From an uncultured Chloroflexia bacterium (GTDB lineage Bacteria; Chloroflexota; Ktedonobacteria; Ktedonobacterales; JADMIN01): DNA of 32,000 nt. Positions 7,862 to 22,181 of this stretch are shown here, piece after piece. The stretch lies in the NCBI GenBank assembly GCA_963718915.1, contig CAVRAI010000015.1, positions 30,001 to 62,000 of the forward strand. The letters run 5' to 3'. The position numbers and the translations under genes are program-made. Under the pieces are notes generated by a model that saw only the letters and a program-made list of their open reading frames with translations, had not been told where the DNA came from and did not search any database. Every line of letters starts with the position of its first letter. Within the stretch, counting starts at the first letter, position 1.

Positions 7862-8080
7862 GGCTCTTACCAACTCTTGCTTATCGGTGATAGTCCAATG
7901 TACCGATGAAGCAGAACCACAGTACTGATATCCACGAGCAATTGTACTGAGTATGGTAGCGCGCTTTCCTTATTCCCAGCGCCAGCAGACAGCCATACAG
8001 CATCGTCCTCCGTTTGCCTGATCATAGCGCCTTTTGCCGTGTGTAGCCGTCCTCTCGCCGAGGAAATGGAGTAGTCAGTC

Positions 8081-11000
8081 ATGCGTCACATGCGTCACTC
8101 AATCGTGCGCCAGTGGGCCCACATCGCCCGTGTCGCTGTCGTCTCTCTGATGATTCTGGTCGTCTTCCAATCGTCGGGGTTAGGCGCGGGTCCGCTCGGC
8201 CTTCTCGGCGTGGCGCATGCTGCCAGCCTGAAACCACAACCTCCGACCAATACGACATGATGTCGGGCGCTTCGTTCCCTATATCAATGCCCCGCAGCTG
8301 CCCAGTGGCAGCTGGACTCCCAAGCAGTCCACCGCGCCGCGCTCTCAGAGCCATCCAGCCACTGGCCAAACGCCAGCCTCAGGGCGCAAAGCTGGCGAAC
8401 AGGCGGACTTGCGCACGGCAGCGAGTTCGACCACCCTCAACAGCGATGGCACCTGGACCCTCACGTCGTATCCCGTGCCCGTCCATTATCAGGATGCTCA
8501 GGGTAACTGGCAGAATATCGACGACACCGTCGTCACCGATAGTTCAGTCTCGGGCTATGGTTATGGGAATAAGGCAAATGGTTGGCAAGTGCATTTTGCC
8601 CAACAGGCGGGTGGCTCCAAACTGCTCCATCTGCGCTATCCTGGCCTGACAGTCGCCGAGGCGCTGAACGGGGCGGCCACCGTCTCCGCGACGGCCAGTG
8701 GCTCGCAGATCATCTATCCGAGTGTGTTTCCCAGCGTGTTGATCTGCTCTATCTGGTCGGCAATGCCCATCTCGAAGAAACGCTTCTGCTCCACACTGCG
8801 CAGACACCTAGCAGCTATAGCTTCACCTATCACGTTCCCGGCGCGACTGCCCGGTAGACGATGCCGGCAATATTGTCTTCCTGGACACGCACGGTAATGT
8901 CCTGTTAACGGTTGGCGGCATCTCGATGTATGAAGCGGACGCGCAGGGACAGCTGCTGCCCACAGGCAAAGAGACAGATAATGTCACGGTGACACTCTCA
9001 GGAACAAGCCCCAATTATACTGTCACGCTGACGCCAGATCAGGCCTGGCTCACTGATCCCTCACGCCATTTCCCGGTAGCGATTGACCCGACCTTTTCGG
9101 GGCCGATATCGCCATAGCAGCACACGAGTGGCAACACCTATGCTGACACATTCGACGAGAGCGGCAATCCCAGCCTGGGCTTCAATACAATGTCAATACC
9201 GAGCGCATTGGCAATTGCAATGCGATTCCCTCAGGGAGCCACTGGCTATGGTACCGGCACCAATCGGTCATACATCAAGTTCCCGATTGGATCGGCCCCA
9301 GCGGGCGCGCGCGTCACCAGCGCAAACTTGTCGCTTTACCAACTCAGCGCCTATGGGGGCGCGGCAACGACAATTGCCGCCGACGAGATCAAGACTGCAT
9401 GGAATGCGACGACACTGACCTGGAACAACCACCCCACAAGCGTCGCAATAGTCGGGATCGGAACCGCCGAACGGACAACGTACAATGTACTGGTGGCAGG
9501 TCGATGTGACCCAGGCGATCTACAATTGGTGGCAGAATGGCCAGACCGACAATGGCCTCCGGCTGCAGCTATACCGACGAGAGCCAACCGTGTGATCTGT
9601 TCGCCTCCGACGATCGCGGCATCACGAACGAGCTCCCGCAGCTCACGGTCAACTATGTCCAGGACACGACCACGCCTGGTGGCGCCATCACGGCAATCAA
9701 TGGCGGTTCATCCCCAACACCAACAATCCCAACGTCACCCTCGCTACGTCGGTTACGGATACTGGCTCGATCACCGAGTGGGGCAGCAACTGGAGCAACA
9801 CGAATGGGCATTGGTGCCAATGGCGGCACCGCGGCGCATTGGGTGACCAATGGCGCGCAACTGGCCGCCGATACGTCGAGCTGTGGCGCGACGGCTTGCG
9901 CCGCGCAGACATTCATTCCGTCGAACGCCTCGACCTGGTCCAATGTCGCGAACTGGCCCACCTTCACCGCGATGTTCAAGTCAGATCTCGGCGGCCAGTT
10001 CAATTTCGGGATGGTGGCCAGCGGCAATAACAATACCCGCTTCGATCTGGTGGCGGCCGCAGGGATCCTCGGCCTTCACCAGCTTTGGAGTATTCGACCA
10101 CGGCAGGCTCCTTCACCACGCTGGCAGTCAATATTCCCTTCACGGCGAATACCTGGTACTATGGACAGGTCGACTTCACGCGCAGCATCTCGCAGAAATC
10201 TATCTCTGGCCGGTTGGGCAGACCAAACCAGCCGTACCGACCATATTCGCAATGGCGTCTACATGTCGCAGCCGGGCTTGAACTTCTGGGAGCAAGGTGA
10301 CAACAGCGGCAGCGGGTCTCCATACCTACACCATCGCCAATGTCATCGCGACCGCCAAGGATACGAATAGCGGGACCATTGGCTACGGCGTCTATGGCAT
10401 GGAGTTCTCGAATGACGGCAGCACCTGGAGCTGCCCAGCTGGTGGGACCTGGTGCGTCGCGGCCAGCCAACCAGCCCACCTGGACGCTGAGCGCGGGGGA
10501 CGGCGCCAAGACGGTCTCCCTCCGCACGATTGACAACGCGGGCAAAATCTCAAGTTCAGCAAGCAGGACGATTATCTACGATACCACCGGGCCGACCGCC
10601 AGCGTCCTCAGTCCGACGGCAGGCCACGATGTGCGCGGTATCGTGACAGTCAACGCTACTGCCACCGACCCAGCCGCGAGCGATGGATCCTTTTCGGGCA
10701 TTGCCAGTGTCGCGCTCTTCATGGATGGCGGCCAGGTGGGATCGCCTGTCACTGGAACGGATTGCGCCGACCTTCCTCTGGGATACGACCAACGTGGGTT
10801 CTGGCCCGCACACGCTGACTGTGCAGGCCACCGACAACGCGGGCAACGTCGGCCCAATGAGCGCGGGCGTCGTCGTCTCGGTGAGCAACACCGGCCAGAT
10901 GAGCTATGAGACCTATGCGCTGCGTGACCTGCCTGCGGGCGACATCAAGGCCGGGGTCAACGTGGCGACTGGGAATTCCGTCGTCACCGAGCAGGATATC

Positions 11001-12703
11001 GACGTAGCGGGCCGGGGACCAGACCTCGCGCTGGGTCGCGAGTACAACGACCTCATGCCCTCGCCTAAACTCTTCGGCTATGGTTGGTCGAGCGATCTCG
11101 ACGAGAGCATCTACGTCAATGCCGACAACTCGGTGACGTACTATGACGCCAGTGGCGGCGTTCACCTCTTCTTGCCCAATGGGTCGGGTGGCTATATCAC
11201 CCCGCCAGGCTTGTTCCTGACGCTGGCGCATAATCAGGATGGCAGCTATACCCTGACCTCACGCGACCAGACGAAGACGAACTTCAACGTTTCGGGCTCT
11301 CTGAACAGCGTGGTCGACCGCAACGGCAACGCGCTGACCATCGCCTATGATGCGAACAATCTGCCGACGACGATGACCGATTCTTCCGGGCGGACACTGA
11401 CCTTCACGACGAGCGGTGGGCACATCACCCATATCGCCGCGCCCGGCTCGCGCACCTTTGACTACGCCTACAATGCTGCCGGGAACCTGACCGACTACAC
11501 CGATCCGCAGGGGATCGTCACCCACTACGACTACGATGCCAGACCATCGCCTGACCAAGATCACGCTGAATTACCAGTCTGGTGGGCCATCTGACGTGCA
11601 GACCAATGTCGCCACAACGCTCAGCTTATGACGGCGTCCAACCGGCTGGTGAGCCTGGTGGACCCGATGGGCTTCGACGCCGGGATCTGCTATGATTCCG
11701 GCGGAAACTGCTATGGCGCGGATCATCCCTGCGACGGAGCGACGGGGATTCCGGGTCGACCTGTGTGGCGCAATTCTGGAAGCTGGACACCATCCAGATC
11801 GCCTGCAGTTCCGGTCTATCAAGATACTGTCTATACCGCCGCCAATGATGGCTCGGGCGCCGTCACGAAGATCACCGATGCGGCTGAGAAACGATACACT
11901 ATATGCCTACGACGCAGCAACGGCGAACTGACGGAACTTACCGACGCCAATGGGCAATGTCACCGATTACACCTATGACGGCAACGGCAATATGCTGACG
12001 CAGGTGGTGGATCCATCTGGCCTGGCGCTCACGACCTCCTGGACCTATGACAGCGCCAACAACGTCTTGACCGAGACCAATCCCATCCGGACATCGTCAC
12101 CAAGTACACCTATGATGCGCCGACAACCGGGAACGTCGTCACGACCGTCCAAAATTACGAGAGCGGCGGCCCGACGAATAGCGATACCAACGTCACCACC
12201 AGCAACACCTACGATAGCTACGGCGAGGTGCTGACCTCGACCGATCCGCTGGGCGTGGTGACGAAGTACACCTACGACAGCTATGGCGACACGCTGACGA
12301 CCACCGAGAACTACCAGTCGGGTGGGCCGTCGGACGACCATACCAATGTGACGACCAGCGCCACCTATGACGACCTGGGCGAGCAGATGACCTCCACCAA
12401 CGCGCTCGGCATCGTCACCGCGACGGTCTACGATATTCGCGGCAACGTGCAGCAGACGACGGCCAATTACCAGTCGGGCGGGCCAACTGACGCCCAGACC
12501 AATGTCAAGACGCAGTACGGCTACGACGCGCTCGGTCGCCAGATCACCACGACCAACCCGCGCGGCATCGTCACCAAGACCGACTATGATCTTGATGGGC
12601 GTGAGACGCAGACGACTGCCAACTACGTCAGTGGTGGCGCGTCAGGACAGCCAGACCAACGTCGACCACGACGACAAAATATGATGGCGCGGGCAACGCG
12701 ACG
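8081..12703 (+). pseudogene. N-terminal ~4.6 kb of a giant Rhs/YD-repeat protein, broken by at least a dozen frameshifts (or assembly indels)
   Basis: ATG 8081 encodes a signal-peptide-like N-terminus (MRHMRHSIVRQWAHIARVAVVSLMILVVFQSS...). Successive pieces sit in different frames:
- a wall-associated N-terminal region (TLNSDGTWTLTSYPVPVHYQDAQGNWQNIDD);
- a DNRLRE-like module (RSYIKFPIGSAPAGARVTSANLSLYQL...LTWNNHP);
- an Ig-like module (TIIYDTTGPTASVLSPTAGHDVRGIVTVNATATD...HTLTVQATDNAGNVG);
- the Rhs N-terminal region (GRGPDLALGREYN...FGYGWSSDLD);
- many YD repeats (e.g. VTKYTYDSYGDTLTTTENYQSGGPSD). Confidence 0.8.
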
Positions 12704-15238
12704 GTGGCGACGGACGCCAAGGGCAACACGACCACGACGACCTACGATGCCGACAACCGCGCCACCGAGACCAAAGTCCAGGACAGTAGCAACACGGTGG
12801 TGCAGGATACAACGACCGCCTACGATGCCGTCGGAAATACGGTGACCTCGCAGGTGTTCGACAAGACGGGCACACTCCTGACGACGACGACCTATACCTA
12901 TGATGCCGCCAACCGGCTGCTGGCCCAGACCGATCCTCCCGCCGATCCCGGCGCATCGGACCAGAGCGGGCAGTCGAATGTCACGACCTACACCTATGAC
13001 ACCAACGGCAACACGACCGAGACGCTAGTCACCAATGCCGCGCCAATCGGCCCTGGCACGGTCACCGATACGAAAGCGACCTTCGATGCGCTCGGGCGGC
13101 AACTGACCAAGACGCAGGACGCCGATACTGGCTCGCCCAAGACCACCAGCTACGTCTACAATGCGGCTGGGCAGCAGACAAGCATGACCGACGAGGCCAG
13201 CAACACCACCACCAGCAGCTACGATGCATTGGGCCGCGTCACTAGCGTCACCAACCCCGACAGCACCATCGATACGACGATCTATGACGCGGCGGGTGAG
13301 CAGTTGACGCAATCGAACAGTGCGGGAACGACCATTGATTCCTACGACCCGCTGGGCCGAGTGAGTACCGAGCAGCGCAAGAACGGCAGTGGTGTCTCGC
13401 AGGGGATCGTCGCCTACACCTATGACGCCAATGGCAGTGTGCTGCAGAAGGTGACAACACTCGCCGATGGCAGCCAGGTGACGAGCGTCAGCACCTACGA
13501 CGCCCTCGACCGCCAAGCGACGATGAACGACGGCACGCGCAGCTACACCTACGACTTGGCGGGCAACGTCACCCATATGCAAGTGGTCGTCTCCGGCAGC
13601 GGCTACGCGGTGCAGACCGACTCCACCTATGACGGCGGCAATCGCGTCTCCAGCCTCTACGACAAGGTGGGTCCGTCGGCCACCATCTTGCACAGCTACG
13701 GCTATACCTACGATGGCAACGGCAACCGCAGCAGCATCGTCGAGGATGGCGCGACCACAACCAACTACAGTTACGACGACCTCAACCAACTGACTCAGGT
13801 GAAGGTCGGCTCGACCACGACTGCGACCTATACCTACGATGCCAATCACAACCGCACCAGCCTGGTGACGGCCGCCGGGACAACTGGCTATACCTACGAC
13901 GACTCGGACCATCTGACCCAGAAGACCGATCCCGACGGCAAGGTCACGAATTATGGCTACGACACCTCAGGCAACCTGACCAGCGCCAGTTATGATCCAA
14001 CCGGCGTCAACCAGGTCACCCAGTATCACTACGATACCAATAGTCGGCTGACCGAGATCGACCAGCCGAGTGGGACAACGATCCAGTTTGGCTACGACAC
14101 CGACAACAACCGCACCACCAAGACGATTACCAGCGGCGGGGTGAGTCACAGCGTCAACGACGTGTATGTGCTCGGCCATCTCGCCTATGAGACCGACGAG
14201 AACGGGACGGTGCTCGCCACCTTCACCTATGACTCGTCGGGCGTACCGGTCAGCGTCCAGGTCGGCAGCGACCCAAACGCCTCCCCGCGCTACTATTACG
14301 TCTACAACGGCCACGGGGATGTCGTGGCGCTGGTCGACGCGCAGGGGAATGTTGCCGCAAGCTATGCCTACGATGCCTTCGGCCAACTGACCACGGCCTC
14401 CGAGAGCTTTGGGAGCGGAACCATCTGGACCAATCCGTACCGCTATGATGGGCGTGACAGCGTGCGTTACGATGGCGAGACAGATCTCTATTGGATGTCT
14501 GTCCGCGCCTATGACCCTACACTGGACCGCTTCCTTTCACGTGATCCGTTGGGGCGTGCGCCACTGTACTTCAGCGACCAGCCGTATGTCTACGCGGGTA
14601 ATAATCCGCTCGTCAACGTTGATCCCAGCGGGCAACGATTCACTACTGATTCGGGCCAAGTGCGAGCGGCAGGTTCTGCGAGTTCACCAAGTCGCGTGAC
14701 AACGTATCCTGGGCGCCCGCTGGCCGGCGGTAAAGGCAAGGAAAGAGCGTCAGGAAAAGAAGAGAACATCTGGTATTGGAAAGAGGATGGTGGTGGCAGG
14801 CATACGGCGTGGATGGGGCCGATTGAGCCTGATCCCAAAGGCTGGCACTTCAATCTTCATATTGAAAACAAGAAAGGCGAAACCCTTGCTAACTACCACT
14901 TCTACTTCTTCGGGTGGTTGGGTATGGGTAGTGGACACGAAGCTTTCGTCTGGTATGTGATAGATACAGACGGCAAGACAACGCGTTTTAAACAATCCTT
15001 TGAGGTGGAAAACAGCGTGTTAGGGCTAGCCGCTACGAAGGTAGCAGTGGATATGACGAGAATGATCGCAAGCAGATTTTCTTTGCCCATGGAATTCAGA
15101 GAAAAACTCATGGGCGAGGATGAAAATGTGTACTCGCGGATATTTGAGGAGGTGTTTGGTAAGAGTAACTATCTGCAAGACATGTTGAGTCGTCTTAACC
15201 AGAGACCTTTGACCAAGAAAGAGAAGTTTGGGCTCTAA
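12704..15238 (+). CDS. Rhs/YD-repeat core plus C-terminal polymorphic toxin domain (intact 844-aa reading frame; the frame is open slightly upstream of 12704)
   Basis: YD repeats run continuously (xxTYxYDxxGNxxx). The core end is WTNPYRYDGRDSVRYDGETDLYWMSVRAYDPTLDRFLSRDPLG...YVYAGNNPLVNVDPSGQ. A 200-aa unrelated tail follows. Confidence 0.85.
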   Translation: MATDAKGNTTTTTYDADNRATETKVQDSSNTVVQDTTTAYDAVGNTVTSQVFDKTGTLLTTTTYTYDAANRLLAQTDPPADPGASDQSGQSNVTTYTYDTNGNTTETLVTNAAPIGPGTVTDTKATFDALGRQLTKTQDADTGSPKTTSYVYNAAGQQTSMTDEASNTTTSSYDALGRVTSVTNPDSTIDTTIYDAAGEQLTQSNSAGTTIDSYDPLGRVSTEQRKNGSGVSQGIVAYTYDANGSVLQKVTTLADGSQVTSVSTYDALDRQATMNDGTRSYTYDLAGNVTHMQVVVSGSGYAVQTDSTYDGGNRVSSLYDKVGPSATILHSYGYTYDGNGNRSSIVEDGATTTNYSYDDLNQLTQVKVGSTTTATYTYDANHNRTSLVTAAGTTGYTYDDSDHLTQKTDPDGKVTNYGYDTSGNLTSASYDPTGVNQVTQYHYDTNSRLTEIDQPSGTTIQFGYDTDNNRTTKTITSGGVSHSVNDVYVLGHLAYETDENGTVLATFTYDSSGVPVSVQVGSDPNASPRYYYVYNGHGDVVALVDAQGNVAASYAYDAFGQLTTASESFGSGTIWTNPYRYDGRDSVRYDGETDLYWMSVRAYDPTLDRFLSRDPLGRAPLYFSDQPYVYAGNNPLVNVDPSGQRFTTDSGQVRAAGSASSPSRVTTYPGRPLAGGKGKERASGKEENIWYWKEDGGGRHTAWMGPIEPDPKGWHFNLHIENKKGETLANYHFYFFGWLGMGSGHEAFVWYVIDTDGKTTRFKQSFEVENSVLGLAATKVAVDMTRMIASRFSLPMEFREKLMGEDENVYSRIFEEVFGKSNYLQDMLSRLNQRPLTKKEKFGL
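14636..15238 (+). other. Rhs C-terminal tip 1 (CT1): candidate toxin domain, family not recognised
   Basis: It starts immediately after DPSGQ (14621-14635). The DNA turns visibly AT-richer here. The sequence includes ...ENIWYWKEDGGGRHTAWMGPIEPDPKGWHFNLHIENKKGETLANYHFYFFGWLGMGSGHEAFVWYVIDTDGK... I cannot assign a catalytic motif. Confidence 0.6.
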
Positions 15239-15317
15239 CGTGTTGGCGTTTGTCTAAGTGTGACAGTACAGTGATAGGTGAGTCGTAGCGCCCACACCAG
15301 TTGCCCAGGAGAGTTCA

Positions 15318-15968
15318 ATGCCGCATAATGAAGGCCCATCGCAAGAAGCGGGATGGAAGTATGGTCCCGTTTTGGTGACGTATGGAGCGTTCTCCATCCG
15401 CGAGTGTTGGAAGGTGTTTGACGGCATCCGAAGGTTTCACTTTCATGAACTCGTGTTTAGAGCAACGCCATCGTCTCCCAACCAAGACGCAGAAACGATT
15501 TCTATCGCGCTAATTGGTCTGCGGCGGACTGATCTGGTCTATGTGGTGCGTTGGGCGCGTATCTGGGTTAACGGGCGTCGTCATGATTTGGCAATGAATC
15601 ACCGCGCGACTTCACACATGCCAGACGATACTGCACCGCTTTCTCTGCATGTTGCTGAAAACGATAAGAATACCAGCGATGAGTTAGACGGGTCAGATAC
15701 TGGATGGGGCAAAGAGCTGTCCTCGGATCCAAATGGCGCGCAACCCGAGGAAGCAAGCGATGAGGATGTTGATGAAGCCGCTTGGGAAGCCAGGATGGTA
15801 CATGAGACAGAACTTGTTGCGCAGGCCCTTCAGGAACTAGAAGCGCAACACCCCGAACTTGATCTCGAGCCTTTCGAAGAGACGAATAATCCCGATCCAG
15901 AGTTTGACGAGGAATTGAGACGGAGCACTCAGGCCGAGGATAATTGGGACAACAAGATGCAGAGTTAG
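15318..15968 (+). CDS. Candidate cognate immunity protein for CT1 (globular N-domain plus highly acidic tail)
   Basis: 216-aa ORF starting 80 nt after the Rhs stop, with AGGAGAG upstream. The C-terminal ~100 aa are rich in D/E (SDEDVDEAAWE...ELDLEPFEETNNPDPEFDEE). Being the first gene after an Rhs tip is the canonical immunity position. Confidence 0.5.
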   Translation: MPHNEGPSQEAGWKYGPVLVTYGAFSIRECWKVFDGIRRFHFHELVFRATPSSPNQDAETISIALIGLRRTDLVYVVRWARIWVNGRRHDLAMNHRATSHMPDDTAPLSLHVAENDKNTSDELDGSDTGWGKELSSDPNGAQPEEASDEDVDEAAWEARMVHETELVAQALQELEAQHPELDLEPFEETNNPDPEFDEELRRSTQAEDNWDNKMQS

Positions 15969-16040
15969 GTTGGGGGCTGACAGCCACTTAAGAGTCGCAG
16001 GCATTTACGTCAATGAGATAGAATCCAACTACGCTCTTGA

Positions 16041-17111
16041 TGTTCACGTTCTCCCTGTGCAACCAGTATTCAGGTTGGCTGCGCCCCCAACAACTCGTCG
16101 CAGTATAACCACGTCTATAACGGCCACGGCGATGCGGTTACGCTGGTCGATGCCAGTGGCAATACCACCGCCAGCTACAGCTACGATGCCTTCGGCCAGT
16201 TGATCAAGTTCAGCGACAGTTTCGGGGGGACGACTACCTGGACCAACCCCTATCGCTACGACGGACGTGATGGCGTGCGCTATGATGGCGAGACGGGCCT
16301 CTACTGGATGAGTGTGCGCGCCTACGACCCGGCGCTGGGGCGCTTCCTCAGCCGCGATCCGCTGGGCCGTGTCCCGCTCTTCTTCGCCGACCAGCCGTAT
16401 GTCTACGCGGGCAACAACCCGCTCCTCAATGTCGATCCCAGCGGGCAGTTCATGGCGACGGAAGGCGTCTCCAATGCACAGGCGCACGCCATCATGAAGC
16501 AAAAAGCCCGCATATATTGGACCCCACCAAGACCTAGAAAGGGGTGGAATGGTTGCTATGAGGGAGATAGAGCGTGTCAGGGGGCTAAGGCAAAACACGA
16601 CGCTCAGGGAGCCTACAACGAGATTACCAACCAGCTTGTCGAACTGTGGGGAAAAGCCTTCAAAGATTGGCTAAATGAGCATTTCAATATCTTTGAAAAG
16701 CTCATTCACTGGACACTAGATCAGGTACTGGATTGGTTAGGTGGCGAAAGCGCCAAAGCGCTGTTTAGCACGCTGACAAAGGATGGGACAGGTGCCCAAG
16801 TCTGGATGCTTGCTCCTTGGCTCGCGTCAATGTGGGAGGCGAATCAGGATGCCTCATGGTTTAGAGTTCCGAAGAACATTGTCAACTTTGGACGCTGGGA
16901 AGAGGACACCGATTTCGCACTAGGAATTGGTGGAGTTGTCTCTATTGGAGCAGGATTAGCTGGAGGCAACGAAGGAGCTGTTGGGTTTGGTTGGGGCATA
17001 ATTGAGGCTTCAGAAGGTTGGACAACGTTGGATGACTCGGTATGGGATCAGCTACTCGAATATGTAACCAGTTGGCCTATTGGCGGACCTGGACACATGC
17101 AGGTTCGGTAG
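16041..17111 (+). CDS. Orphan Rhs C-terminal cassette (core 3' block plus second, unrelated tip CT2); no convincing own start codon
   Basis: The frame is open from 16041, and the ORF track starts at a TTG at 16200. Bases 16101-16448 encode YNHVYNGHGDAVTLVDASGNTTASYSYDAFGQL...WTNPYRYDGRDGVRYDGETGLYWMSVRAYDPALGRFLSRDPLG...NNPLLNVDPSGQ, homologous to 14294-14635. The 220 aa after DPSGQ are unrelated to CT1. Confidence 0.7.
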   Translation, partial: CSRSPCATSIQVGCAPNNSSQYNHVYNGHGDAVTLVDASGNTTASYSYDAFGQLIKFSDSFGGTTTWTNPYRYDGRDGVRYDGETGLYWMSVRAYDPALGRFLSRDPLGRVPLFFADQPYVYAGNNPLLNVDPSGQFMATEGVSNAQAHAIMKQKARIYWTPPRPRKGWNGCYEGDRACQGAKAKHDAQGAYNEITNQLVELWGKAFKDWLNEHFNIFEKLIHWTLDQVLDWLGGESAKALFSTLTKDGTGAQVWMLAPWLASMWEANQDASWFRVPKNIVNFGRWEEDTDFALGIGGVVSIGAGLAGGNEGAVGFGWGIIEASEGWTTLDDSVWDQLLEYVTSWPIGGPGHMQVR

Positions 17112-17137
17112 CAAAGAGTAATCAGAAAAGAGGCACA

Positions 17138-17875
17138 ATGCGGAACATGAGCCAGTATCTCGTAGGTAGGCGTATACACACTATGTTATCAGTAAGCTGC
17201 GTGCTAGGGATCCTTTCCGTCGTCCTGTGCACCTTGCTTGGTTGCGGTCTTCCTGCTCAAAGTGTGACATCAGCGCCAACGCCAACTATTCAACAGATCT
17301 TAGCGCATGCGCGTGCTGTACGCATTGGGGATGGCATCATCAACTTAACACTAAGCAGTACCAAGCAGGGACAGCCACCTGAACATGGCACAGGAACGAT
17401 AAAATTCACCAGTCAACCGGAGCGCCTAGACTTAGGCATAACACTTTCCTCAGGCGAGACAGTTTTTTCCGGCGAAGAGATTGCTGATGCAGCCACAAAT
17501 AGTGTTTATGCTAAAGTCGACGTTCCCTCAAAATTTACAAGCAATACCTGGACAAAGACACAGAACGGCTTCGATTTTGCCAGCTTCAACAATGTGCTTC
17601 ACTACGCCAATCTCGGTAATCCTGTGCTCTTGGGCGGTGAATCGCTGCAACATGTACGTGTTTGGCATCTGCGCGGATCTGCGGTCAATCAAGGGCCAAA
17701 TACATCACTTGATGTGTATCTACGACAAGACAACTTCTTGCCCGTCGAGGTTGTCCTTACCACCCGAGGAAATCCCTCAGGAACTGTGACTTATTTCTAC
17801 ACCGCACTCAATACTGGGATCTCGATTGTATTGCCCGTGCTCCCTACCCCTACAGTCGGAGCGTCCTCACAGTAG
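17138..17875 (+). CDS. Putative lipoprotein (candidate immunity or accessory protein of the orphan cassette)
   Basis: ATG 17138 is preceded by AAAAGAGG. The signal peptide has a lipobox: RRIHTMLSVSCVLGILSVVLCTLLGC. The mature part is beta-rich and has no motif I recognise. Confidence 0.6.
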   Translation: MRNMSQYLVGRRIHTMLSVSCVLGILSVVLCTLLGCGLPAQSVTSAPTPTIQQILAHARAVRIGDGIINLTLSSTKQGQPPEHGTGTIKFTSQPERLDLGITLSSGETVFSGEEIADAATNSVYAKVDVPSKFTSNTWTKTQNGFDFASFNNVLHYANLGNPVLLGGESLQHVRVWHLRGSAVNQGPNTSLDVYLRQDNFLPVEVVLTTRGNPSGTVTYFYTALNTGISIVLPVLPTPTVGASSQ

Positions 17876-17947
17876 CTCTGGTTGTGGCGATGTCCGATAG
17901 CAGCCATGCTGCCAAATTTGAGTGCGACTTGCCGATGATAGGAGAAT

Positions 17948-18274
17948 ATGATGACCCAGCCCATGTCTATCATGGACTTTCTCTTTGGCATAGGTCAGGC
18001 GATACTAGTGGTGATTTTAGGATTGTTGATTCTACTTTTCCGTACCCCACGAAGTGAGCGCTTACTGCGCAGACGGCGGTTCTTGTATGTTCTGAGCGCG
18101 ATAGCATGCGTTGTCATTCAACTGATGATAACAAGTTTATTGGGGACAGTACTCTCAGGTTCACCAATACACGCGCTTACACTACCTACGATTCTCGGTT
18201 TGCTTTTGATGAGTCCGTTCTATGTTCTAGGGATAGCTGTCTTCTTTCGTGCCATCAGTTATAGGCCCAGTTGA
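17948..18274 (+). CDS. Small multi-pass membrane protein (candidate immunity protein)
   Basis: 108-aa ORF with TAGGAGAA upstream. It has three to four hydrophobic helices (FLFGIGQAILVVILGLLILLF, FLYVLSAIACVVIQLMITSLLGTVL, LTLPTILGLLLMSPFYVLGIAVFF). Confidence 0.6.
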   Translation: MMTQPMSIMDFLFGIGQAILVVILGLLILLFRTPRSERLLRRRRFLYVLSAIACVVIQLMITSLLGTVLSGSPIHALTLPTILGLLLMSPFYVLGIAVFFRAISYRPS

Positions 18275-18307
18275 CGTATCGATATGCATATAAAATATCC
18301 GAGCTGA

Positions 18308-18853
18308 ATGAGCAGCCTGAACACGACACGCGCAGGCGGCAGCGCCACGACACTGCTGGATAGCATCGGCTATAGCGGCGCAGGGAGCGGCAGGACATGC
18401 CACCAGCACCAGCGTGGCTACGACGCCGACAACAACCGCACCACCAAGACCATCACCAGCGGCGGGGTGAGCCATAGCGTCAACGACGTCTATGTGTTTG
18501 GGCATCTGGCCTACGAGACTGATGAGAACGGGACGGTGCTCGCCACTTTCACCTATGACTCGCACGGCGCGCCCGTCAGCGTCCAGGTGGGGAGCGCTCC
18601 CAATACCTCCCCGCGCTACTACTATGTCTATAACGGCCATGGCGATGTCGTTGCCCTCGTTGATGCACAGGGGAATGTGGCTGCCAGCTACGCCTACGAT
18701 GCCTTCGGCCAGTTGACCTCGGCCAGCGAGAACTTCGGCAGCGGCACGACCTGGACGAACCCATATCGCTATGATGGGCGCGATGGTGTGCGCTACGATG
18801 GCGAGACGGCTTGTCTTGGATGAGCGTCCGCGCCTATGATCCCGCGCTCGGAT
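18308..18853 (+). pseudogene. Tip-less orphan Rhs core fragment
   Basis: It encodes DNNRTTKTITSGGVSHSVNDVYVFGHLAYETDENGTVLATFTYDSHGAPVSVQVGS...YYYVYNGHGDVVALVDAQGNVAASYAYDAFGQL...WTNPYRYDGRDGVRYDGET, nearly identical at the protein level to 14090-14525. A 1-nt deletion relative to the other copies (GAGACGG-C, about 18808) shifts the frame. Homology stops at about 18851, before the DPxGQ motif. Confidence 0.8.
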
Positions 18854-19288
18854 AGCCTACTCCACGCCACTCTTGTCGCCCACAATTTGAAGCGCTTTGG
18901 TGGCTATCTGCCGCAGCGGAGCGCGCAGGGCGGCGGGCTGGCGGACGTGTACCAGGAAGTCGAGCGTGAGCAGGTTGTGCGCGATCTACTCCAGTTGCGT
19001 CGCGCCACGGCGAAAGATCACCCCATGCTCCGCTGGCTCCAGTGTAGCCATCATGGCCGGGATAACTTGCCGCGCCCGCTCCATCGTCGTCTGCAGCAGC
19101 GCCTCAACCTGATCGCGTGGCGCCGCGAAGGCGCCCGACCTGCTCGTCGGCGATATCCGCCAGTTCGTCCGCTCGTTGCGCGCGCAGCGGCAGACCGGGT
19201 ACGGTTGGAGATACTGGCTGGGCATGGCGCAATAGCTTGTCCCAGACAGCATCAGGCGATGATGCGTGGACATTATCAGGAGCTTGTC

Positions 19289-20362
19289 ATGACGCCAGCG
19301 GATATCGATTTGCAACGATTGTCTCAGCAGCGGCTCGCAGGCCATCACGTCGCGACGCCGGAGGAGGTGGTCGGCTGGTTCGGCGCGGTCCAGTCGCAGG
19401 AATACCTGGGGGCGATCTGGTCGCTGGGCATGCGCATGGGTGGCGAGACGACCGACGATGTGATCGAGCGCGCTTTCACTGAGGGGACAATCCTGCGCAC
19501 CCATGTCATGCGCCCAACCTGGCATTTCGTGGCCCCCGCCGATATTCGCTGGCTGCTGGCTTTGACCGCGCCGCGCATCAAGGCCACAATGTCCTACTAT
19601 GACCGCCAGCTTGACCTTGACGACACGCTCTATGCCCGCAGCAACGAGGTCATCGCCAGGGCGCTGGAGGGCGGAAAGCATCTGACACGCGCCGAGCTAG
19701 GGAAGGCGCTGGCGGAGGCTAACATCGTCGTAGCGGGGCAGCGGCTGGCCCATATCGTCTCACACGCCGAGCTAGACGCGGTGGTGTGCAGCGGCCCCCG
19801 GCGCGGGAAGCAGTTCACCTACGCGCTGCTGGTGGAGCGCGCACCAACCGCGAGGACGTTGCCCCGCGATGAGGCGCTGGCCGAGCTGACGCAGCGCTAC
19901 TTCACCAGCCACGGCCCAGCGACGGCCCGCGACTTCGCCTGGTGGTCGGGGCTGACGATGGCCGATGCCCAGACGGGCCTGAAGATGGTCGGCTCTGACC
20001 TCACCCACGAGGAGATCGCGGGCCAGACGTACTGGTTCCCGGCATCGCTGTCGCCTGCCCCAGATGCATCTGAGGTGGCTTTCCTGCTGCCGACCTATGA
20101 CGAGTTGCTGGTAGGCTACCATGGTTTCGGCGCGGCGCTGACGGGCGGGAACGGCAACGGCGAGCGGGCGGCATTCAGCGCGACGATGGTGATCAGCGGC
20201 CGGGTCGTCGGCAACTGGCGGCGAACAATCACCAGGGGAGCCGTGGTAATCGAGCTGGCTCCATTCGCGCCGCTGACCGCATCCGAACGCGAGGCCGTCT
20301 CCATCGCCGCTGGGCGCTACGGCGCGTTCCTCGGCTTGCCGGTGGAGTGTGTGGGGCTGTAG
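19289..20362 (+). CDS. Winged-helix DNA-binding domain protein of the AlkZ/YcaQ (DUF1006) type, a putative DNA glycosylase family
   Basis: From ATG 19289: MTPADIDLQRLSQQRLAGHHVATPEEVVGWFGAVQSQEYLGAIWSLGMR...ILRTHVMRPTWHFVAPADIRWLL...RYFTSHGPATARDFAWWSGL...LLPTYDELLVGY. The 150-aa N-terminal extension in the ORF track is Arg-rich and probably not coding. Confidence 0.75.
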   Translation: MTPADIDLQRLSQQRLAGHHVATPEEVVGWFGAVQSQEYLGAIWSLGMRMGGETTDDVIERAFTEGTILRTHVMRPTWHFVAPADIRWLLALTAPRIKATMSYYDRQLDLDDTLYARSNEVIARALEGGKHLTRAELGKALAEANIVVAGQRLAHIVSHAELDAVVCSGPRRGKQFTYALLVERAPTARTLPRDEALAELTQRYFTSHGPATARDFAWWSGLTMADAQTGLKMVGSDLTHEEIAGQTYWFPASLSPAPDASEVAFLLPTYDELLVGYHGFGAALTGGNGNGERAAFSATMVISGRVVGNWRRTITRGAVVIELAPFAPLTASEREAVSIAAGRYGAFLGLPVECVGL

Positions 20363-20413
20363 CTATCTCATCCCGCTGTGTTTCCATGTTATAGTGAAGG
20401 GGCAATCATCCTA

Positions 20414-20426
20414 TCGCATGATGCGA
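20414..20426. promoter_or_regulatory. Palindrome in the antitoxin promoter region (candidate RHH operator)
   Basis: TCGCAT-G-ATGCGA is a perfect palindrome about 33 nt upstream of the GTG start. An extended -10 (TGTTATAGT, 20387-20395) lies just upstream. A 9-bp inverted pair, CTATCTCAT (20363-20371) and ATGAGATAG (20437-20445), brackets the region. Confidence 0.35.
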
Positions 20427-20458
20427 CGACGATTCCATGAGATAGTGAGGAATCACCT

Positions 20459-20731
20459 GTGGCATATCAAATCACACTCTCCGAGGAAGACTACGCAGCG
20501 CTGGCGGCTGCCTCGACGCAGACCGGCGAGCCGATAGAGCAGTTGGTGCATGAGGCGATAGCCGCCCGGTATGAATCCGAGCATCCCATCGGGCGGATGG
20601 AGAAGTATCAATACCCCACCGGGGAGCCTGATTCACCAGAAGAGGAAGAAGAAGACGATGCTCTTGCAACAAGCATTGGCCCAGGTAGACCACTCTCTGA
20701 GATCGTTATAGAAGACCGCGGCCCACGCTGA
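20459..20731 (+). CDS. Ribbon-helix-helix-type antitoxin (VapB-like) with acidic C-terminus
   Basis: The GTG start is preceded by GAGGAA. The N-terminus MAYQITLSEEDYAALAAASTQTGEPIEQLVHEAIAARY looks like an RHH fold. The stop overlaps the ATG of a PIN remnant (TGATG). Confidence 0.6.
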   Translation: MAYQITLSEEDYAALAAASTQTGEPIEQLVHEAIAARYESEHPIGRMEKYQYPTGEPDSPEEEEEDDALATSIGPGRPLSEIVIEDRGPR

Positions 20732-20874
20732 TGGCAACGTATTTTCTCGACACATCAGCGCTCGTCAAGCGCCGCTGCCGCCGAGGGATTGCCATCGAGA
20801 ACCCGAGCGGATCACCCATAGTTTGTGGCGCACACCGTCATCACCGCGTTCACGTGTGGCGTACGAGTACCTGA
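20731..20874 (+). pseudogene. VapC-type PIN toxin remnant with a large internal deletion
   Basis: MATYFLDTSALVKR is the canonical PIN N-terminus with the first acidic residue. It joins directly to a sequence resembling a PIN C-terminus (AAAAEG in one frame, IAIENP in the adjacent frame). Only 47 codons remain, against about 130 expected. Confidence 0.6.
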
Positions 20875-22181
20875 AGGACGCGGCGCCCCTCCACCGCCGC
20901 CACCTCGATCTCCCAGTCCGGCTTCAATTCTATTCGGTCGCCAACGCGCGGCAGCCGACCTAGCCGCAGCATCAGCAGGCCGGGCAGCGTCGTATATTGT
21001 CCGCGTTCCTCGTCGGGTATTTCTGGCAGGCCAATGACCGTGCGCGCGTTCTCGTACGACTCTGACCCCAACACAGCCCAGACGCCATCGGGCCGCTGGC
21101 GGATAGGAGCATCCTCGTCCACGTCGTACTCGTCGTGAATCTCGCCGACAATCTCCTCCAGCACGTCTTCAAGCGTCACCAACCCCGCTACCTGCCCATA
21201 TTCGTCTACGACCAGCGCGAGGTGCGCGCTCTCACGGCGAAACGTCGCCAGCACATCGTCGAGATGTTGTGTCTCCAGCACGAACGACGCCGGACGCATC
21301 ACCGCCTCGATGGATGGCGCGCCGCCCTCGGTAGCGGCAACCTCGCGGGCATGGAGCAGGTCTTTCGCGTGGAGGACTCCAACAACCTGATCGAGCGTCT
21401 CGCGATAGACGGGCAGACGAGTATAGCCGGACTCGAAGCAGACGCGCGCCGCGGCCTCCAGTGACGTGTCATGCGGCAGAGCCACGATATCGCTGCGCGG
21501 TGTCAGAATGTCGCGGGCAACCTTATCGCCAAAGTCGAAGATATGCCGCAGCAGCACCTCTTCCTCGGCGTCGAGCACGCCCGCTTTCCGACTCTGCGCC
21601 ACAATGATTTCCAGCTCTTCGACCGAGTGCGCCGCGGCATGTTCGTCGGGCGAGTCAAACCCCAGCAGCCGGACAATCGAGTTGCCAAGGCCATTCATTA
21701 AGGCAATGAAGGGGCGGAAGACACGCGCAAAAATCAGCAGCGGCGCGGCGACGATAAACGCCACCCGCTCGGTGCGTTGCAAGGCGATAGACTTGGGCAC
21801 CAGCTCGCCCAGCACGATATGGAAGCCAGTTATCAGCACAAAGCTGAGGGCGATGGCGACGGTATTGGCAAGCCCCTCGGCGGTCGAGACGTTGCCGACC
21901 CACTGGAAGAGTGGCTCGATCAGGTGAGAGAGGCTCGGCTCGCCGATCCAGCCGAGGGCAAGGCTGGCGAGCGTGATGCCAAGCTGTGTCGCGGCGATGT
22001 AGCTATCCAGGTGGGCCGTCTGTCGCTGCACGATGCGGGCGAGCGCGTTGCCCTCCATCACCAGCTGCTCGATGCGCGTGACCCGAACCTTGACCAGCGC
22101 GAACTCCGCCGCGACGAAGAAGCCGTTGGCGCCGACCAGCAAGAAGACCGCCAGCACGCCGAGTATTGAGCCAGTATCCAT
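20850..22181 (-). CDS. CNNM/HlyC/CorC-family transporter (DUF21 + CBS pair + CorC_HlyC)
   Basis: Start assigned at MDTGSILGVLAVFLLVGANGFFVAAEFALVKVR, with GGAGG 6 nt upstream. The CBS region is ARDILTPRSDIVALPHD...GYTRLPVYRETLDQVVGVLHAKDLL. The CorC_HlyC C-terminus is YTTLPGLLMLRLGRLPRVGDRIELKPDWEIEVAAVEGRRV. Confidence 0.85.
   Translation of the reverse strand: MDTGSILGVLAVFLLVGANGFFVAAEFALVKVRVTRIEQLVMEGNALARIVQRQTAHLDSYIAATQLGITLASLALGWIGEPSLSHLIEPLFQWVGNVSTAEGLANTVAIALSFVLITGFHIVLGELVPKSIALQRTERVAFIVAAPLLIFARVFRPFIALMNGLGNSIVRLLGFDSPDEHAAAHSVEELEIIVAQSRKAGVLDAEEEVLLRHIFDFGDKVARDILTPRSDIVALPHDTSLEAAARVCFESGYTRLPVYRETLDQVVGVLHAKDLLHAREVAATEGGAPSIEAVMRPASFVLETQHLDDVLATFRRESAHLALVVDEYGQVAGLVTLEDVLEEIVGEIHDEYDVDEDAPIRQRPDGVWAVLGSESYENARTVIGLPEIPDEERGQYTTLPGLLMLRLGRLPRVGDRIELKPDWEIEVAAVEGRRVLQVLVRHT

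What the first reader, a model, noticed from the sequence alone, without database searches (positions are those of the whole stretch)
16449..18274. Orphan tip CT2 has a glycine-zipper hydrophobic hairpin, suggesting a membrane-targeting toxin; two different candidate immunity genes follow
CT2 is 220 aa and has two parts. The first is Trp-rich and amphipathic-helix-like (ELWGKAFKDWLNEHFNIFEKLIHWTLDQVLDWL). The second is a ~30-aa Gly/Ala-rich hydrophobic stretch (FALGIGGVVSIGAGLAGGNEGAVGFGWGII). This resembles the hydrophobic helical hairpin of pore-forming bacteriocins and the glycine zippers of membrane-depolarising effectors.

Two genes follow rather than the usual one: a lipoprotein (17138-17875) and a 108-aa protein with 3-4 TM helices (17948-18274). 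Immunity proteins for pore-forming colicins are small polytopic inner-membrane proteins, so the second gene is the better match. The lipoprotein could be an accessory factor, or an orphan immunity gene left behind by a lost cassette.
Basis: inference. Interest (0 to 1): 0.75.

Follow-up and report, generated by a model that had tools for sequence, protein, structure and literature searches.

The report
Orphan Rhs toxin tip, two partners
A spare, unannotated toxin tip in a bacterial Rhs competition locus is always followed by a lipoprotein gene and often by a small membrane-protein gene, so it is probably an envelope-acting toxin neutralised mainly by the lipoprotein; this is a new family within a well-known kind of system.

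Summary
An orphan Rhs tip (16200-17111) carries a 220-aa C-terminal domain, CT2 (16449-17111). It is followed by a lipoprotein gene (17138-17875, lipobox LLGC) and a 108-aa, 3-TM gene (17948-18274).

- **CT2 family.** It is tiny: 6 hits among 1.84 billion representatives. It has no Pfam, NCBIfam, PADLOC or PDB match.
- **Structure.** The best AlphaFold model (pLDDT 65) is all-helical and matches no solved fold.
- **Hydrophobic stretch.** Its hydropathy is weak (KD19 1.37, reached by 22% of shuffles). Its glycine-zipper motif is not conserved in homologues. Glycine clustering, Trp richness and one amphipathic helix are real.
- **Partners.** A lipobox-bearing homologue of the lipoprotein directly follows a CT2-like tip in 6 of 6 loci and co-diverges with it. 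The TM homologue follows the lipoprotein in 3 of 5 informative loci and co-diverges too.

So the lipoprotein is the core partner, not a leftover. The TM protein is a second, lineage-restricted partner.

Most likely this is an envelope- or membrane-acting helical toxin with extracytoplasmic immunity. Pore formation is plausible but unproven. It is a new toxin/immunity family of a known kind, of moderate interest.

The parts
16056..16448 (+). Orphan Rhs core fragment (C-terminal end of the YD shell, through ...DPLGRVPLFFADQPYVYAGNNPLLNVDPSGQ). It has no ATG of its own; the first start codon in frame is TTG at 16200.
   Evidence: TIGR03696 Rhs_assc_core E 5.9e-17. 75% DNA identity between window 16071-16447 and the main rhs 14258-14634. 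The frame stays open from about 16040. GC is 0.62, like the rhs core.
16449..17111 (+). CT2, a 220-aa C-terminal toxin domain of an unannotated family (stop codon included).
   Evidence: No Pfam, NCBIfam or PADLOC hit and no PDB sequence hit. Only 6 relatives among 1.84e9 representatives. AF2 predicts an all-alpha fold, pLDDT 65.5. No Foldseek match in the PDB. GC is 0.51.
16449..16631 (+). Conserved N-terminal module of the tip. It comprises the pre-toxin linker FMATEG...KQKARIYW and the Cys-pair motif KGWNGC-x6-CQGA (16539-16586).
   Evidence: 81% DNA identity to L001 up to window 16631, after which DNA homology stops. K31, G32, N34, G35, C36, D40, C43, Q44 and G45 are invariant in 5 of 5 members. 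P0007 shares the FMATEG...KQKAR linker but has a different CT.
16641..16739 (+). Trp-rich amphipathic helical segment (ELWGKAFKDWLNEHFNIFEKLIHWTLDQVLDWL).
   Evidence: The maximal 18-aa hydrophobic moment, 0.60, lies at aa 69-86 (p about 0.04 versus shuffles). The segment is helical in the AF2 model.
16833..16892 (+). Most conserved core motif of the family, WE-x6-WF-x4-NI-x2-FG.
   Evidence: E130, W137, N143, I144 and F147 are invariant in 6-7 of 7 sequences.
16914..17003 (+). Gly/Ala-rich moderately hydrophobic stretch. It is predicted as a helix, a turn at GGNEG, then a short helix.
   Evidence: Sequence and coordinates. 11 Gly in 30 aa (p 0.0075), but KD19 1.37 is not exceptional. It is the least conserved part of the family. 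In the AF2 model it falls in helices 117-148 and 151-162 of the 196-aa construct.
17138..17875 (+). Lipoprotein, 245 aa, lipobox LLGC at 17234-17245. It is the candidate primary immunity protein and is extracytoplasmic.
   Evidence: Homologues with a lipobox directly follow CT2-like tips in L001, L002, L005, L007 and L009. Toxin and lipoprotein similarities are correlated (Spearman 0.69). The only family hint is LolA_like, sub-threshold, in 1 member.
17948..18274 (+). Small 3-TM membrane protein, 108 aa. It is the candidate second partner (co-immunity).
   Evidence: It is 45% identical (E 9e-25) to the 104-aa TM protein that follows the lipoprotein in L009. It is weakly similar to the L001 TM, whose start recurs 161 bp after the L001 lipoprotein. 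It is unrelated to the TM genes that follow other tips in L002. The word-based search found no other homologue.
18308..18850 (+). Third orphan Rhs core fragment. It is frameshifted and truncated inside ...WMSVRAYDPALG, with no tip, and marks the end of the array.
   Evidence: RHS_repeat E 3.7e-11. 83% DNA identity to the main rhs 14083-14517. Three-frame translation.

Best explanation
Window 16056-18274 is a silent 'orphan' cassette of a Sec-secreted Rhs/YD-repeat competition locus. It holds a spare toxin tip (CT2) plus two protection genes.

CT2 belongs to a very rare, unannotated, all-helical toxin family. That family acts on the outside of the target cell's cytoplasmic membrane, either in the membrane itself or on a membrane-proximal envelope target.

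The lipoprotein encoded immediately downstream is the cognate immunity protein. It is tethered to the outer face of the membrane and binds the incoming toxin. The small 3-TM protein is a second partner found in one sub-lineage of the family. It probably protects at the level of the bilayer, as polytopic immunity proteins of helical pore formers do.

My preferred mode of action is membrane insertion and depolarisation. Interfacial, Trp-rich amphipathic helices would drive it, together with a small-residue-rich helix-turn-helix.

What is shown: the gene order, the linkage, the co-divergence, the export signals and the absence of any enzyme match. What is inferred: the site of action, the division of labour between the two partners, and pore formation.
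For: **(1) Orphan Rhs tip.**
- The Rhs core domain and its homology to the 3' end of the main rhs are established.
- GC drops from 0.61 to 0.46-0.51 across CT2, the lipoprotein and the TM gene.

**(2) Delivery outside the cell.** The main rhs (from about 8071) opens with a Sec-type signal peptide and carries CBM96, Big_7, DUF6531 and RHS repeats. It shows no T6SS marker.

**(3) Lipoprotein linkage.**
- In 6 of 6 loci a CT2-like tip is directly followed by a homologous protein with a lipobox (LLGC, VAGC, LAGC, IAGC, LAGC, LCGC).
- Toxin and lipoprotein pairwise similarities correlate (Spearman 0.69, Pearson 0.81 over 15 pairs).

**(4) TM linkage.**
- The TM gene follows the lipoprotein in the window, L009 and L001.
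- Its divergence parallels the other two genes. Window versus L009: TM 46%, toxin 46%, lipoprotein 47%. Window versus L001: 25%, 30%, 31%.
- It is not related to the TM immunity genes of other tips, so it is not simply a stray from a neighbouring cassette type.

**(5) CT2 features.**
- It is all-alpha in both AF2 runs.
- It is Trp-rich with a significant amphipathic helix and a Gly cluster.
- An invariant Cys pair is compatible with an oxidising, extracytoplasmic site.
- There is no hit to any enzyme family or fold.

**(6) Neighbourhood.** Sister tips in the same kind of array (L002 tips A-C, P0007) are strongly hydrophobic (KD19 1.8-2.2). In L002 each is followed by a small polytopic TM gene.

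**(7) Precedents.** These include the Rhs pore former Tse5-CT with the membrane protein Tsi5 (PMC9637101), CDI ionophores with polymorphic TM immunity at about 30% identity (PMC11630599), and the glycine-zipper toxin EsxX with two distinct immunity families (PMC12744356).
Against: - The hydrophobic stretch is weak (KD19 1.37, reached by 22% of shuffles). It is weak in most relatives too (0.9-1.3) and is the least conserved part of the domain.
- The glycine zipper is not conserved.
- The second arm of the putative hairpin has about 9 apolar residues, too short to span a bilayer.
- The AF2 model is only marginal: pLDDT 65.5, with the other four models at 50 or below. Foldseek found no similarity to colicin, Bcl-2-like or other pore-forming folds.
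- Lipoprotein immunity is better known for periplasm-acting enzymes, for example the phospholipase Tle1 with the lipoprotein Tli1, mentioned in PMC6889166.
- The TM gene is missing after the lipoprotein in L005 and apparently in L002.
- Three of the seven known family members are pseudogenes (IS insertion, nonsense codon, frameshift). The main rhs in the window is itself broken in about 9 places. The cassette may therefore not be in use here.
- The host's taxon, and hence its envelope type, was not determined.
Confidence: 0.5

Rival explanations
1. CT2 is an extracytoplasmic enzyme rather than a pore former. It could be a lipid II-, peptidoglycan- or phospholipid-directed activity that uses its amphipathic and hydrophobic helices only to reach a membrane-embedded substrate. 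The lipoprotein is a classical active-site-blocking immunity protein.
For: - A lipoprotein partner is present in 6 of 6 loci. Lipoprotein or periplasmic immunity is typical of envelope-acting enzymes (Tle1/Tli1, cited in PMC6889166).
- The best-conserved residues are polar or aromatic and lie outside the hydrophobic stretch (E130, N143, S197, Q201).
- The hydropathy is too weak for a TM hairpin.
Against: - No match to any enzyme family or fold.
- No recognisable catalytic motif.
- The module also contains a co-diverging polytopic membrane protein in three loci.
Confidence: 0.25
2. The 3-TM protein is the true immunity protein, as for pore-forming colicins. The lipoprotein is an accessory factor or an orphan left from a lost cassette.
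For: - The TM protein is of the size and topology of Tsi5, CdiI or colicin immunity proteins (PMC9637101, PMC11630599).
- It co-diverges with the toxin in three loci.
Against: - The lipoprotein, not the TM gene, is the invariant neighbour (6 of 6 versus 3 of 5).
- The lipoprotein lies directly after the toxin stop (26 nt in the window) and co-diverges with the toxin.
- In L005 the lipoprotein is followed by a convergent epimerase gene with no TM gene.
Confidence: 0.1
3. The TM gene is an orphan immunity gene of a different, lost toxin tip. It merely sits between cassettes and has nothing to do with CT2.
For: - In L002, small TM genes follow other, much more hydrophobic tips.
- In both the window and L001 the TM gene lies just upstream of another Rhs core fragment.
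- The TM gene is absent from two CT2 loci.
Against: - The same TM family recurs after the CT2-type lipoprotein in three loci, with parallel divergence.
- It is not related to the L002 TM genes.
- There is no remnant of a tip in the 72 bp between the lipoprotein and TM genes.
Confidence: 0.1
4. CT2 is a cytoplasm-acting toxin. Its helical, hydrophobic part is a membrane-translocation ('entry') region and the real toxic activity resides in a short C-terminal piece.
For: - The tip has a two-part organisation.
- Glycine-zipper segments can serve translocation in other effectors (title and abstract of PMC10240207).
Against: - Both partner proteins are exported or membrane proteins, and no cytoplasmic immunity candidate exists in any locus.
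- The residual C-terminal piece after the stretch is only about 35 aa.
Confidence: 0.05

Closest known systems
Tse5-CT / Tsi5 (Pseudomonas aeruginosa RhsP1; PMC9637101, PMC10684867)
   Same: The toxin is the C-terminal tip of an Rhs protein. It is helical with amphipathic and hydrophobic segments and has no predicted enzymatic activity. A small integral membrane protein is encoded downstream as the protection factor.
   Different: - No sequence similarity (Pfam and PDB searches empty).
- Tse5 is T6SS-delivered in a diderm, whereas the window's Rhs has a Sec signal peptide.
- CT2 is much less hydrophobic.
- CT2's invariant partner is a lipoprotein, which Tse5 lacks.
EsxX with ExiAB and ExiCD (Staphylococcus aureus T7SS LXG toxin; PMC12744356)
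   Same: It is a glycine-zipper, membrane-depolarising polymorphic toxin protected by two unrelated immunity families. One of these is polytopic membrane proteins that act against toxin arriving from outside.
   Different: - EsxX has an LXG/T7SS scaffold, not Rhs.
- Its second immunity (ExiAB) is cytoplasmic and soluble. Here the second partner is an exported lipoprotein, so both partners face the outside.
- No sequence homology.
- The zipper is not conserved in the CT2 family.
CDI ionophore toxins and their CdiI proteins (PMC11630599)
   Same: These are polymorphic helical membrane toxins at the C-terminus of a large surface-displayed protein. Toxin and immunity diverge in step, to about 30% identity within a group, as seen here.
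   Different: - CdiA is delivered by a two-partner system in Gram-negative bacteria.
- It has five-helix-bundle ionophore domains with clearly membrane-spanning helices and receptor-dependent entry domains.
- Its immunity proteins are TM proteins only. No lipoprotein partner is described in the abstract.
Pore-forming colicin domain (Pfam PF01024) with polytopic inner-membrane immunity proteins
   Same: From established knowledge, the colicin domain is a roughly 200-aa bundle of about ten helices with a hydrophobic hairpin at helices 8-9, and its immunity protein is a small polytopic membrane protein. The AF2 model of CT2 also has ten helical elements, with the apolar helix-turn-helix in eighth and ninth position.
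   Different: - No Pfam hit even at E 10.
- No Foldseek hit to any colicin structure.
- The CT2 hairpin is too short and too polar.
- CT2 has a lipoprotein partner.
WapA-type Sec-secreted Rhs/YD toxins of monoderm bacteria with orphan tip arrays (established knowledge)
   Same: These are signal-peptide Rhs proteins with a C-terminal polymorphic toxin. Downstream lie immunity genes and arrays of orphan core-fragment + tip + immunity cassettes.
   Different: The characterised WapA tips are cytoplasm-acting nucleases with soluble cytoplasmic immunity proteins. Here both partners are envelope proteins.

Membership tests
Rhs/YD-repeat orphan toxin-immunity cassette | An Rhs-associated core domain ending in the DPxG...DPxG motif lies directly upstream of the variable tip. 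| tested here: met
   TIGR03696, aa 7-83, E 5.9e-17. The sequence reads ...SRDPLGRVPLFFADQPYVYAGNNPLLNVDPSGQ.
Rhs/YD-repeat orphan toxin-immunity cassette | The core fragment is homologous to the 3' end of a full-length rhs gene upstream and lacks an N-terminal part and a proper start. | tested here: met
   Window 16071-16447 is 75% identical to 14258-14634 of the main rhs. There is no ATG; the only start codon is TTG at 16200.
Rhs/YD-repeat orphan toxin-immunity cassette | A variable tip plus closely linked small gene(s) that co-vary with it, with atypical composition. | tested here: met
   6 of 6 loci show tip followed by lipoprotein, with correlated divergence. GC is 0.46-0.51 versus 0.61.
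Pore-forming colicin domain (PF01024) | Sequence match to the family profile. | tested here: not met
   No Pfam hit at E up to 10 for any of 6 family members. No PDB sequence hit.
Pore-forming colicin domain (PF01024) | A ten-helix globular bundle burying a hydrophobic helical hairpin long enough to span the bilayer. | tested here: inconclusive
   The AF2 model has ten helical elements and a helix-turn-helix at the right place, but pLDDT is only 65.5. Foldseek against the PDB gives a best E of 0.58 and no colicin. The apolar arms are about 18 + 9 aa and KD19 is 1.37.
Glycine-zipper membrane-depolarising toxins (EsxX, CdzC/D and similar) | A (G/A/S)xxxGxxxG or GxxxGxxx(G/A/T) motif in the toxic segment, conserved in relatives. 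| tested here: not met
   Four overlapping matches in CT2 aa 165-187. None in P0002, P0005 or P0006. One each, at other positions, in P0003 and L005.
Glycine-zipper membrane-depolarising toxins (EsxX, CdzC/D and similar) | Dissipation of membrane potential on exposure of the outer face of the membrane. | not testable with these tools
   This needs export-directed expression with DiSC3(5) or DiBAC readouts.
Bacterial lipoprotein (for 17138-17875) | An N-terminal signal peptide ending in a lipobox [LVI][ASTVILC][GAS]C. | tested here: met
   LLGC with Cys36 in the window. A lipobox is present in all six homologues.
LolA-like lipoprotein fold (PF17131) | Profile match above the gathering threshold. 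| tested here: not met
   Only the L001 homologue hits, at 15.3 bits against a cut-off of 30 (E 0.016). The window protein gives no hit.
Small polytopic membrane immunity proteins (Tsi5, CdiI or colicin-immunity type) for 17948-18274 | A small protein with 2-4 TM helices, encoded next to the toxin and co-varying with it. | tested here: met
   Three TM segments. It follows the cassette in 3 of 5 informative loci, and its identity to homologues (46% and 25%) parallels the toxin (46% and 30%).
Small polytopic membrane immunity proteins (Tsi5, CdiI or colicin-immunity type) for 17948-18274 | Protection of cells against the cognate toxin. | not testable with these tools
   This needs co-expression or competition assays.

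The most novel reading that the evidence does not exclude
CT2 founds a previously undescribed family of Sec/Rhs-delivered, outside-acting membrane toxins. Immunity is split between an exported lipoprotein that captures the toxin at the cell surface and a co-evolving 3-TM protein that blocks it in the bilayer. That would be a two-tier, entirely extracytoplasmic immunity not described for Rhs toxins. The family may be a weakly hydrophobic branch of a larger 'NIxxF - helix - (E/D)NP turn - helix' group of hairpin toxins seen in the same arrays (L002 tip C, P0007).
Probability: 0.25. Interest if true: 0.65.

Novelty: new member of a known kind. Interest (0 to 1): 0.4.

Why it matters
Rhs tips are a large reservoir of antibacterial activities, and most tips characterised so far are cytoplasmic nucleases or other enzymes. 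A helical, envelope-acting tip delivered by a Sec-secreted Rhs would add to the few Rhs membrane toxins known (Tse5).

Its extracytoplasmic lipoprotein partner, often accompanied by a membrane protein, would also offer a simple system for two questions. How is a surface-delivered toxin intercepted before or within the membrane? How do two immunity components divide that task?

The practical value is modest. The family is very rare, half of its known copies are decayed, and the function is still only inferred.

Tried and rejected
**Searches that returned nothing or failed**
- Pfam, NCBIfam and PADLOC on CT2, the lipoprotein and the TM protein gave nothing above threshold.
- PDB sequence searches with family profiles gave only chance hits.
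- The first AF2 run, on a 2-sequence alignment, had pLDDT 49.5 and was discarded.
- Foldseek against the PDB with the better model gave no hit below E 0.5.
- Both genome-contig scans (CT2 and lipoprotein profiles) found nothing. The source genome is therefore not in that collection and the taxon is unknown.
- The first metagenome scan found nothing.
- The word-based search with the TM protein found only itself.
- The look-up of P0001's contig failed. Cluster look-up gave no names.
- The promoter and terminator scan of 15200-18900 was no better than shuffles.

**Ideas tested and dropped or left open**
- For a time I held that the TM gene was a leftover from a neighbouring cassette, because in L001 it lies upstream of the tip. 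I rejected this as the leading view for three reasons. The end of the L001 contig repeats the TM gene start after the lipoprotein. L009 shows the same tip-lipoprotein-TM order. The TM family is unrelated to the L002 TM genes.
- A distant relationship between CT2 and the very hydrophobic tips (L002 tip C, P0007) is only suggested. hhalign gives P 0.035 and 0.0098, aligned at the NIxxF and ENP motifs, with probability below 5%. I do not claim it.
- The L005 sequence could not be added to the structure job.
Full report
**1. What is in the window**

The + strand from about 8.07 kb to 18.85 kb is an Rhs/YD-repeat locus. It contains, in order:
- a long main rhs gene that ends at 15238;
- its own tip (CT1) and a 216-aa ORF (15318-15968);
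- a second, orphan core fragment with tip CT2 (ORF 16200-17111);
- two small genes (17138-17875 and 17948-18274);
- a third, truncated core fragment (18308 to about 18850) that abuts an AlkZ-like gene.

The CT2 ORF carries the Rhs-associated core domain (TIGR03696, E 5.9e-17). At the DNA level it is 75% identical to the 3' end of the main rhs. GC falls from 0.61-0.62 in the core fragments to 0.51 (CT2), 0.50 (lipoprotein) and 0.46 (TM). That is the usual signature of exchangeable toxin/immunity cassettes.

The main rhs begins near 8071 with a Sec-type signal peptide. It contains CBM96, Big_7, DUF6531 and RHS repeats. Delivery is therefore by secretion and surface display (WapA-like), not by T6SS.

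**2. Checking the observation**

- CT2 is 220 aa, 6.8% Trp and 12% Gly.
- The lipoprotein has a signal peptide and lipobox LLGC.
- The 108-aa protein has three TM helices and a strongly positive first loop.
- Both downstream genes have good Shine-Dalgarno sequences. The lipoprotein starts 26 nt after the CT2 stop.

Shuffle controls support the glycine cluster (11 in 30 aa, p about 0.0075) and one amphipathic helix (moment 0.60, p about 0.04). The hydropathy of the 'hydrophobic hairpin' is not beyond chance. Its KD19 maximum of 1.37 is below 1.6, and 22% of shuffles reach it.

An independent Logan assembly reproduces 16426-20988 exactly.

**3. What CT2 is related to**

Nothing annotated matches. 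There is no Pfam, NCBIfam or PADLOC hit and no PDB sequence match.

The family is extremely small. A word-indexed search of 5.8 billion proteins found one relative. An exhaustive HMMER search of 1.84 billion representatives found six proteins including the query. A profile search added no more true members; its only extra hit, P0008, is not a family member.

Members are all Rhs tips.

Conservation is concentrated in three places:
- an N-terminal Cys-pair motif, KGWNGC-x6-CQGA;
- a core motif, WE-x6-WF-x4-NI-x2-FG;
- a C-terminal L..S...Q motif.

The Gly-rich stretch is the least conserved segment. No residue in it is invariant. The glycine-zipper pattern is absent from three relatives. KD19 maxima are 0.9-1.4 in five of the six members that contain the stretch.

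DNA homology with the closest locus (L001) stops at window 16631. The exchangeable toxin proper therefore begins near CT2 aa 60.

**4. Structure**

With two sequences AF2 gave pLDDT 49.5. With six sequences the best model reached pLDDT 65.5 and pTM 0.65.

That model is all-alpha with ten helical elements. The Gly-rich region forms the end of a long helix, a turn at GGNEG, and a short helix.

Foldseek against the PDB gave nothing (best E 0.58, TM at most 0.36). So there is no soluble-enzyme fold, but also no colicin-like or other pore-former fold. The model is too weak for a negative result to be decisive. Other fold libraries were unavailable.

**5. Which downstream gene goes with CT2**

This was the most informative test. 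I recovered the genomic context of all the CT2-like tips found.

| Locus | After the CT2-like tip | TM gene after the lipoprotein? | State of the tip |
|---|---|---|---|
| Window | lipoprotein (LLGC) | yes, 72 bp later | intact |
| L001 | lipoprotein (VAGC) | yes, start recurs 161 bp later | intact |
| L002 (tip D) | lipoprotein (LAGC) | probably not; only 122 nt remain and the ORF starting there is not TM-like | intact |
| L005 | lipoprotein (IAGC) | no; a convergent UDP-GlcNAc 2-epimerase gene follows | in-frame stop codon |
| L007 | lipoprotein (LAGC) | uninformative; contig ends | only the C-terminal part on the contig; that part is intact |
| L009 (identical in five or six samples) | lipoprotein (LCGC), frameshifted | yes, 104 aa, intact | frameshifted |
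| L003/L004 | no information | no information | cut by an IS4/5 transposase |

A homologue of the lipoprotein with a lipobox therefore follows the tip directly in 6 of 6 informative loci.

Toxin and lipoprotein pairwise similarities are correlated (Spearman 0.69, Pearson 0.81 over 15 non-independent pairs).

The TM protein has homologues after the lipoprotein in L009 (45% identity, E 9e-25) and in L001. In L001 the contig's last 126 nt repeat its nt 8-133, which places the TM gene start 161 bp after the lipoprotein. This reflects either a tandem array or a looped assembly path.

TM identity tracks the other two genes:

| Comparison | TM | Toxin | Lipoprotein |
|---|---|---|---|
| Window vs L009 | 46% | 46% | 47% |
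| Window vs L001 | 25% | 30% | 31% |

The TM family is not detectably related to the TM genes that follow other tips in L002.

I conclude that the lipoprotein is the core partner and the TM protein a genuine but lineage-restricted second partner.

**6. Mechanism**

*Shown.* This is an orphan Rhs cassette. Both partner proteins are exported or membrane-embedded, and no cytoplasmic immunity candidate exists in any locus. The toxin is helical, Trp-rich and has an invariant Cys pair. It shows no enzyme signature.

*Inferred.* CT2 acts at the outer face of the cytoplasmic membrane or in the envelope. The lipoprotein intercepts it there. The TM protein adds protection in the bilayer.

I favour membrane insertion and depolarisation for three reasons:
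- a polytopic membrane partner co-evolves with the toxin;
- sister tips in the same kind of array are overtly membrane-type (KD19 1.8-2.2), and in L002 each is followed by a small TM gene;
- there are close functional precedents, namely Tse5-CT/Tsi5 (PMC9637101), CDI ionophores with CdiI (PMC11630599), and EsxX with two immunity families (PMC12744356).

The main rival is an envelope-directed enzyme with lipoprotein immunity, as for Tle1/Tli1 (mentioned in PMC6889166). It is favoured by the weak, unconserved hydrophobic stretch and by conserved polar residues outside it (E130, N143, S197, Q201). I put the envelope-acting reading with lipoprotein immunity at about 0.5 overall, and pore formation specifically lower.

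A possible distant link between CT2 and the hydrophobic tips (L002 tip C, P0007) rests on a shared 'NIxxF - about 30-35 aa - (E/D)NP' arrangement and on weak hhalign signals (P 0.035 and 0.0098). It is a lead only.

**7. Comparison and novelty**

The system is a member of the well-known class of Rhs orphan toxin/immunity cassettes, and all the defining features I tested are met.

It is not a member of the colicin pore-forming family: there is no profile or fold match, and the hairpin is too short. It cannot be filed with the glycine-zipper toxins either, because the motif is not conserved.

What is new is the toxin family itself, its lipoprotein partner family and its TM partner family. All three are unannotated and very rare. 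The consistent pairing with an exported lipoprotein is also new.

Caveats:
- Three of the seven known copies are decayed.
- The main rhs of this locus looks broken in about nine places.
- The host taxon is unknown.

The interest is moderate: a solid, testable candidate for an outside-acting Rhs toxin with two-component extracytoplasmic immunity, but not a surprise in kind.

Noticed in passing
window 8071-15238 (+): The main rhs gene is split over at least nine frame changes or stops between about 8.1 and 12.7 kb. Its CBM96, Big_7, DUF6531 and RHS-repeat parts lie in separate ORFs, while six other 1.4-1.5 kb genes in the window are intact. It is either a decayed pseudogene or a locally poor assembly. 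Its N-terminus (about 8071) is a Sec-type signal peptide.
   Followed up: partly
window 14650-15968 (+): The resident tip CT1 (about 200 aa after DPSGQ, GC 0.49) and the following 216-aa ORF with a very acidic C-terminal half (15318-15968) match no Pfam, NCBIfam or PADLOC family. They are presumably another unknown toxin/immunity pair.
   Followed up: partly
window 18308-20362 (+): The third orphan core fragment is frameshifted and ends inside ...WMSVRAYDPALG with no tip. The adjacent 508-aa ORF matches AlkZ-like only from aa 179 on, so its real start is probably much later than 18836.
   Followed up: partly
L002 2254-8921: A metagenomic array of four orphan Rhs tips. Three have strongly hydrophobic, Gly/Ala-rich tips (KD19 1.8-2.2), each followed by a small polytopic TM gene of 107-167 aa. 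The fourth is CT2-like and is followed by the lipoprotein. The tips share a Cys/Gly-rich linker (GHYRCDETGC...).
   Followed up: partly
L006 309-1079 (P0007): A tip with the same Rhs core end and the same pre-toxin linker as CT2 (FMATEGISNAQAHVIMKQKAR) but a different, strongly hydrophobic C-terminal domain. The linker appears to be a recombination joint for swapping toxins.
   Followed up: partly
L001 1-133 and 2545-2670: The contig's last 126 nt are identical to its nt 8-133. This implies either a tandem repeat of a roughly 2.5-kb tip-lipoprotein-TM unit or a looped assembly path.
   Followed up: partly
L009 (identical L008, L010-L012): The same strain's cassette was assembled from five or six different sequencing runs. 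Its toxin is frameshifted in the WESNQ...WFQ motif and its lipoprotein is frameshifted near the C-terminus, but the TM gene is intact.
   Followed up: partly
L005 8360-9842: This CT2-like tip has an in-frame stop codon inside the conserved WE...W(F/Y) motif and a non-hydrophobic version of the 'hairpin' region, yet the lipoprotein downstream is intact.
   Followed up: partly
window 20459-20874 (+): A 90-aa ORF abuts a 47-aa ORF at 20731 that begins MATYFLDTSALVKR. From memory this resembles the start of a PIN/VapC toxin, possibly truncated. Pfam gave no hit.
   Followed up: partly
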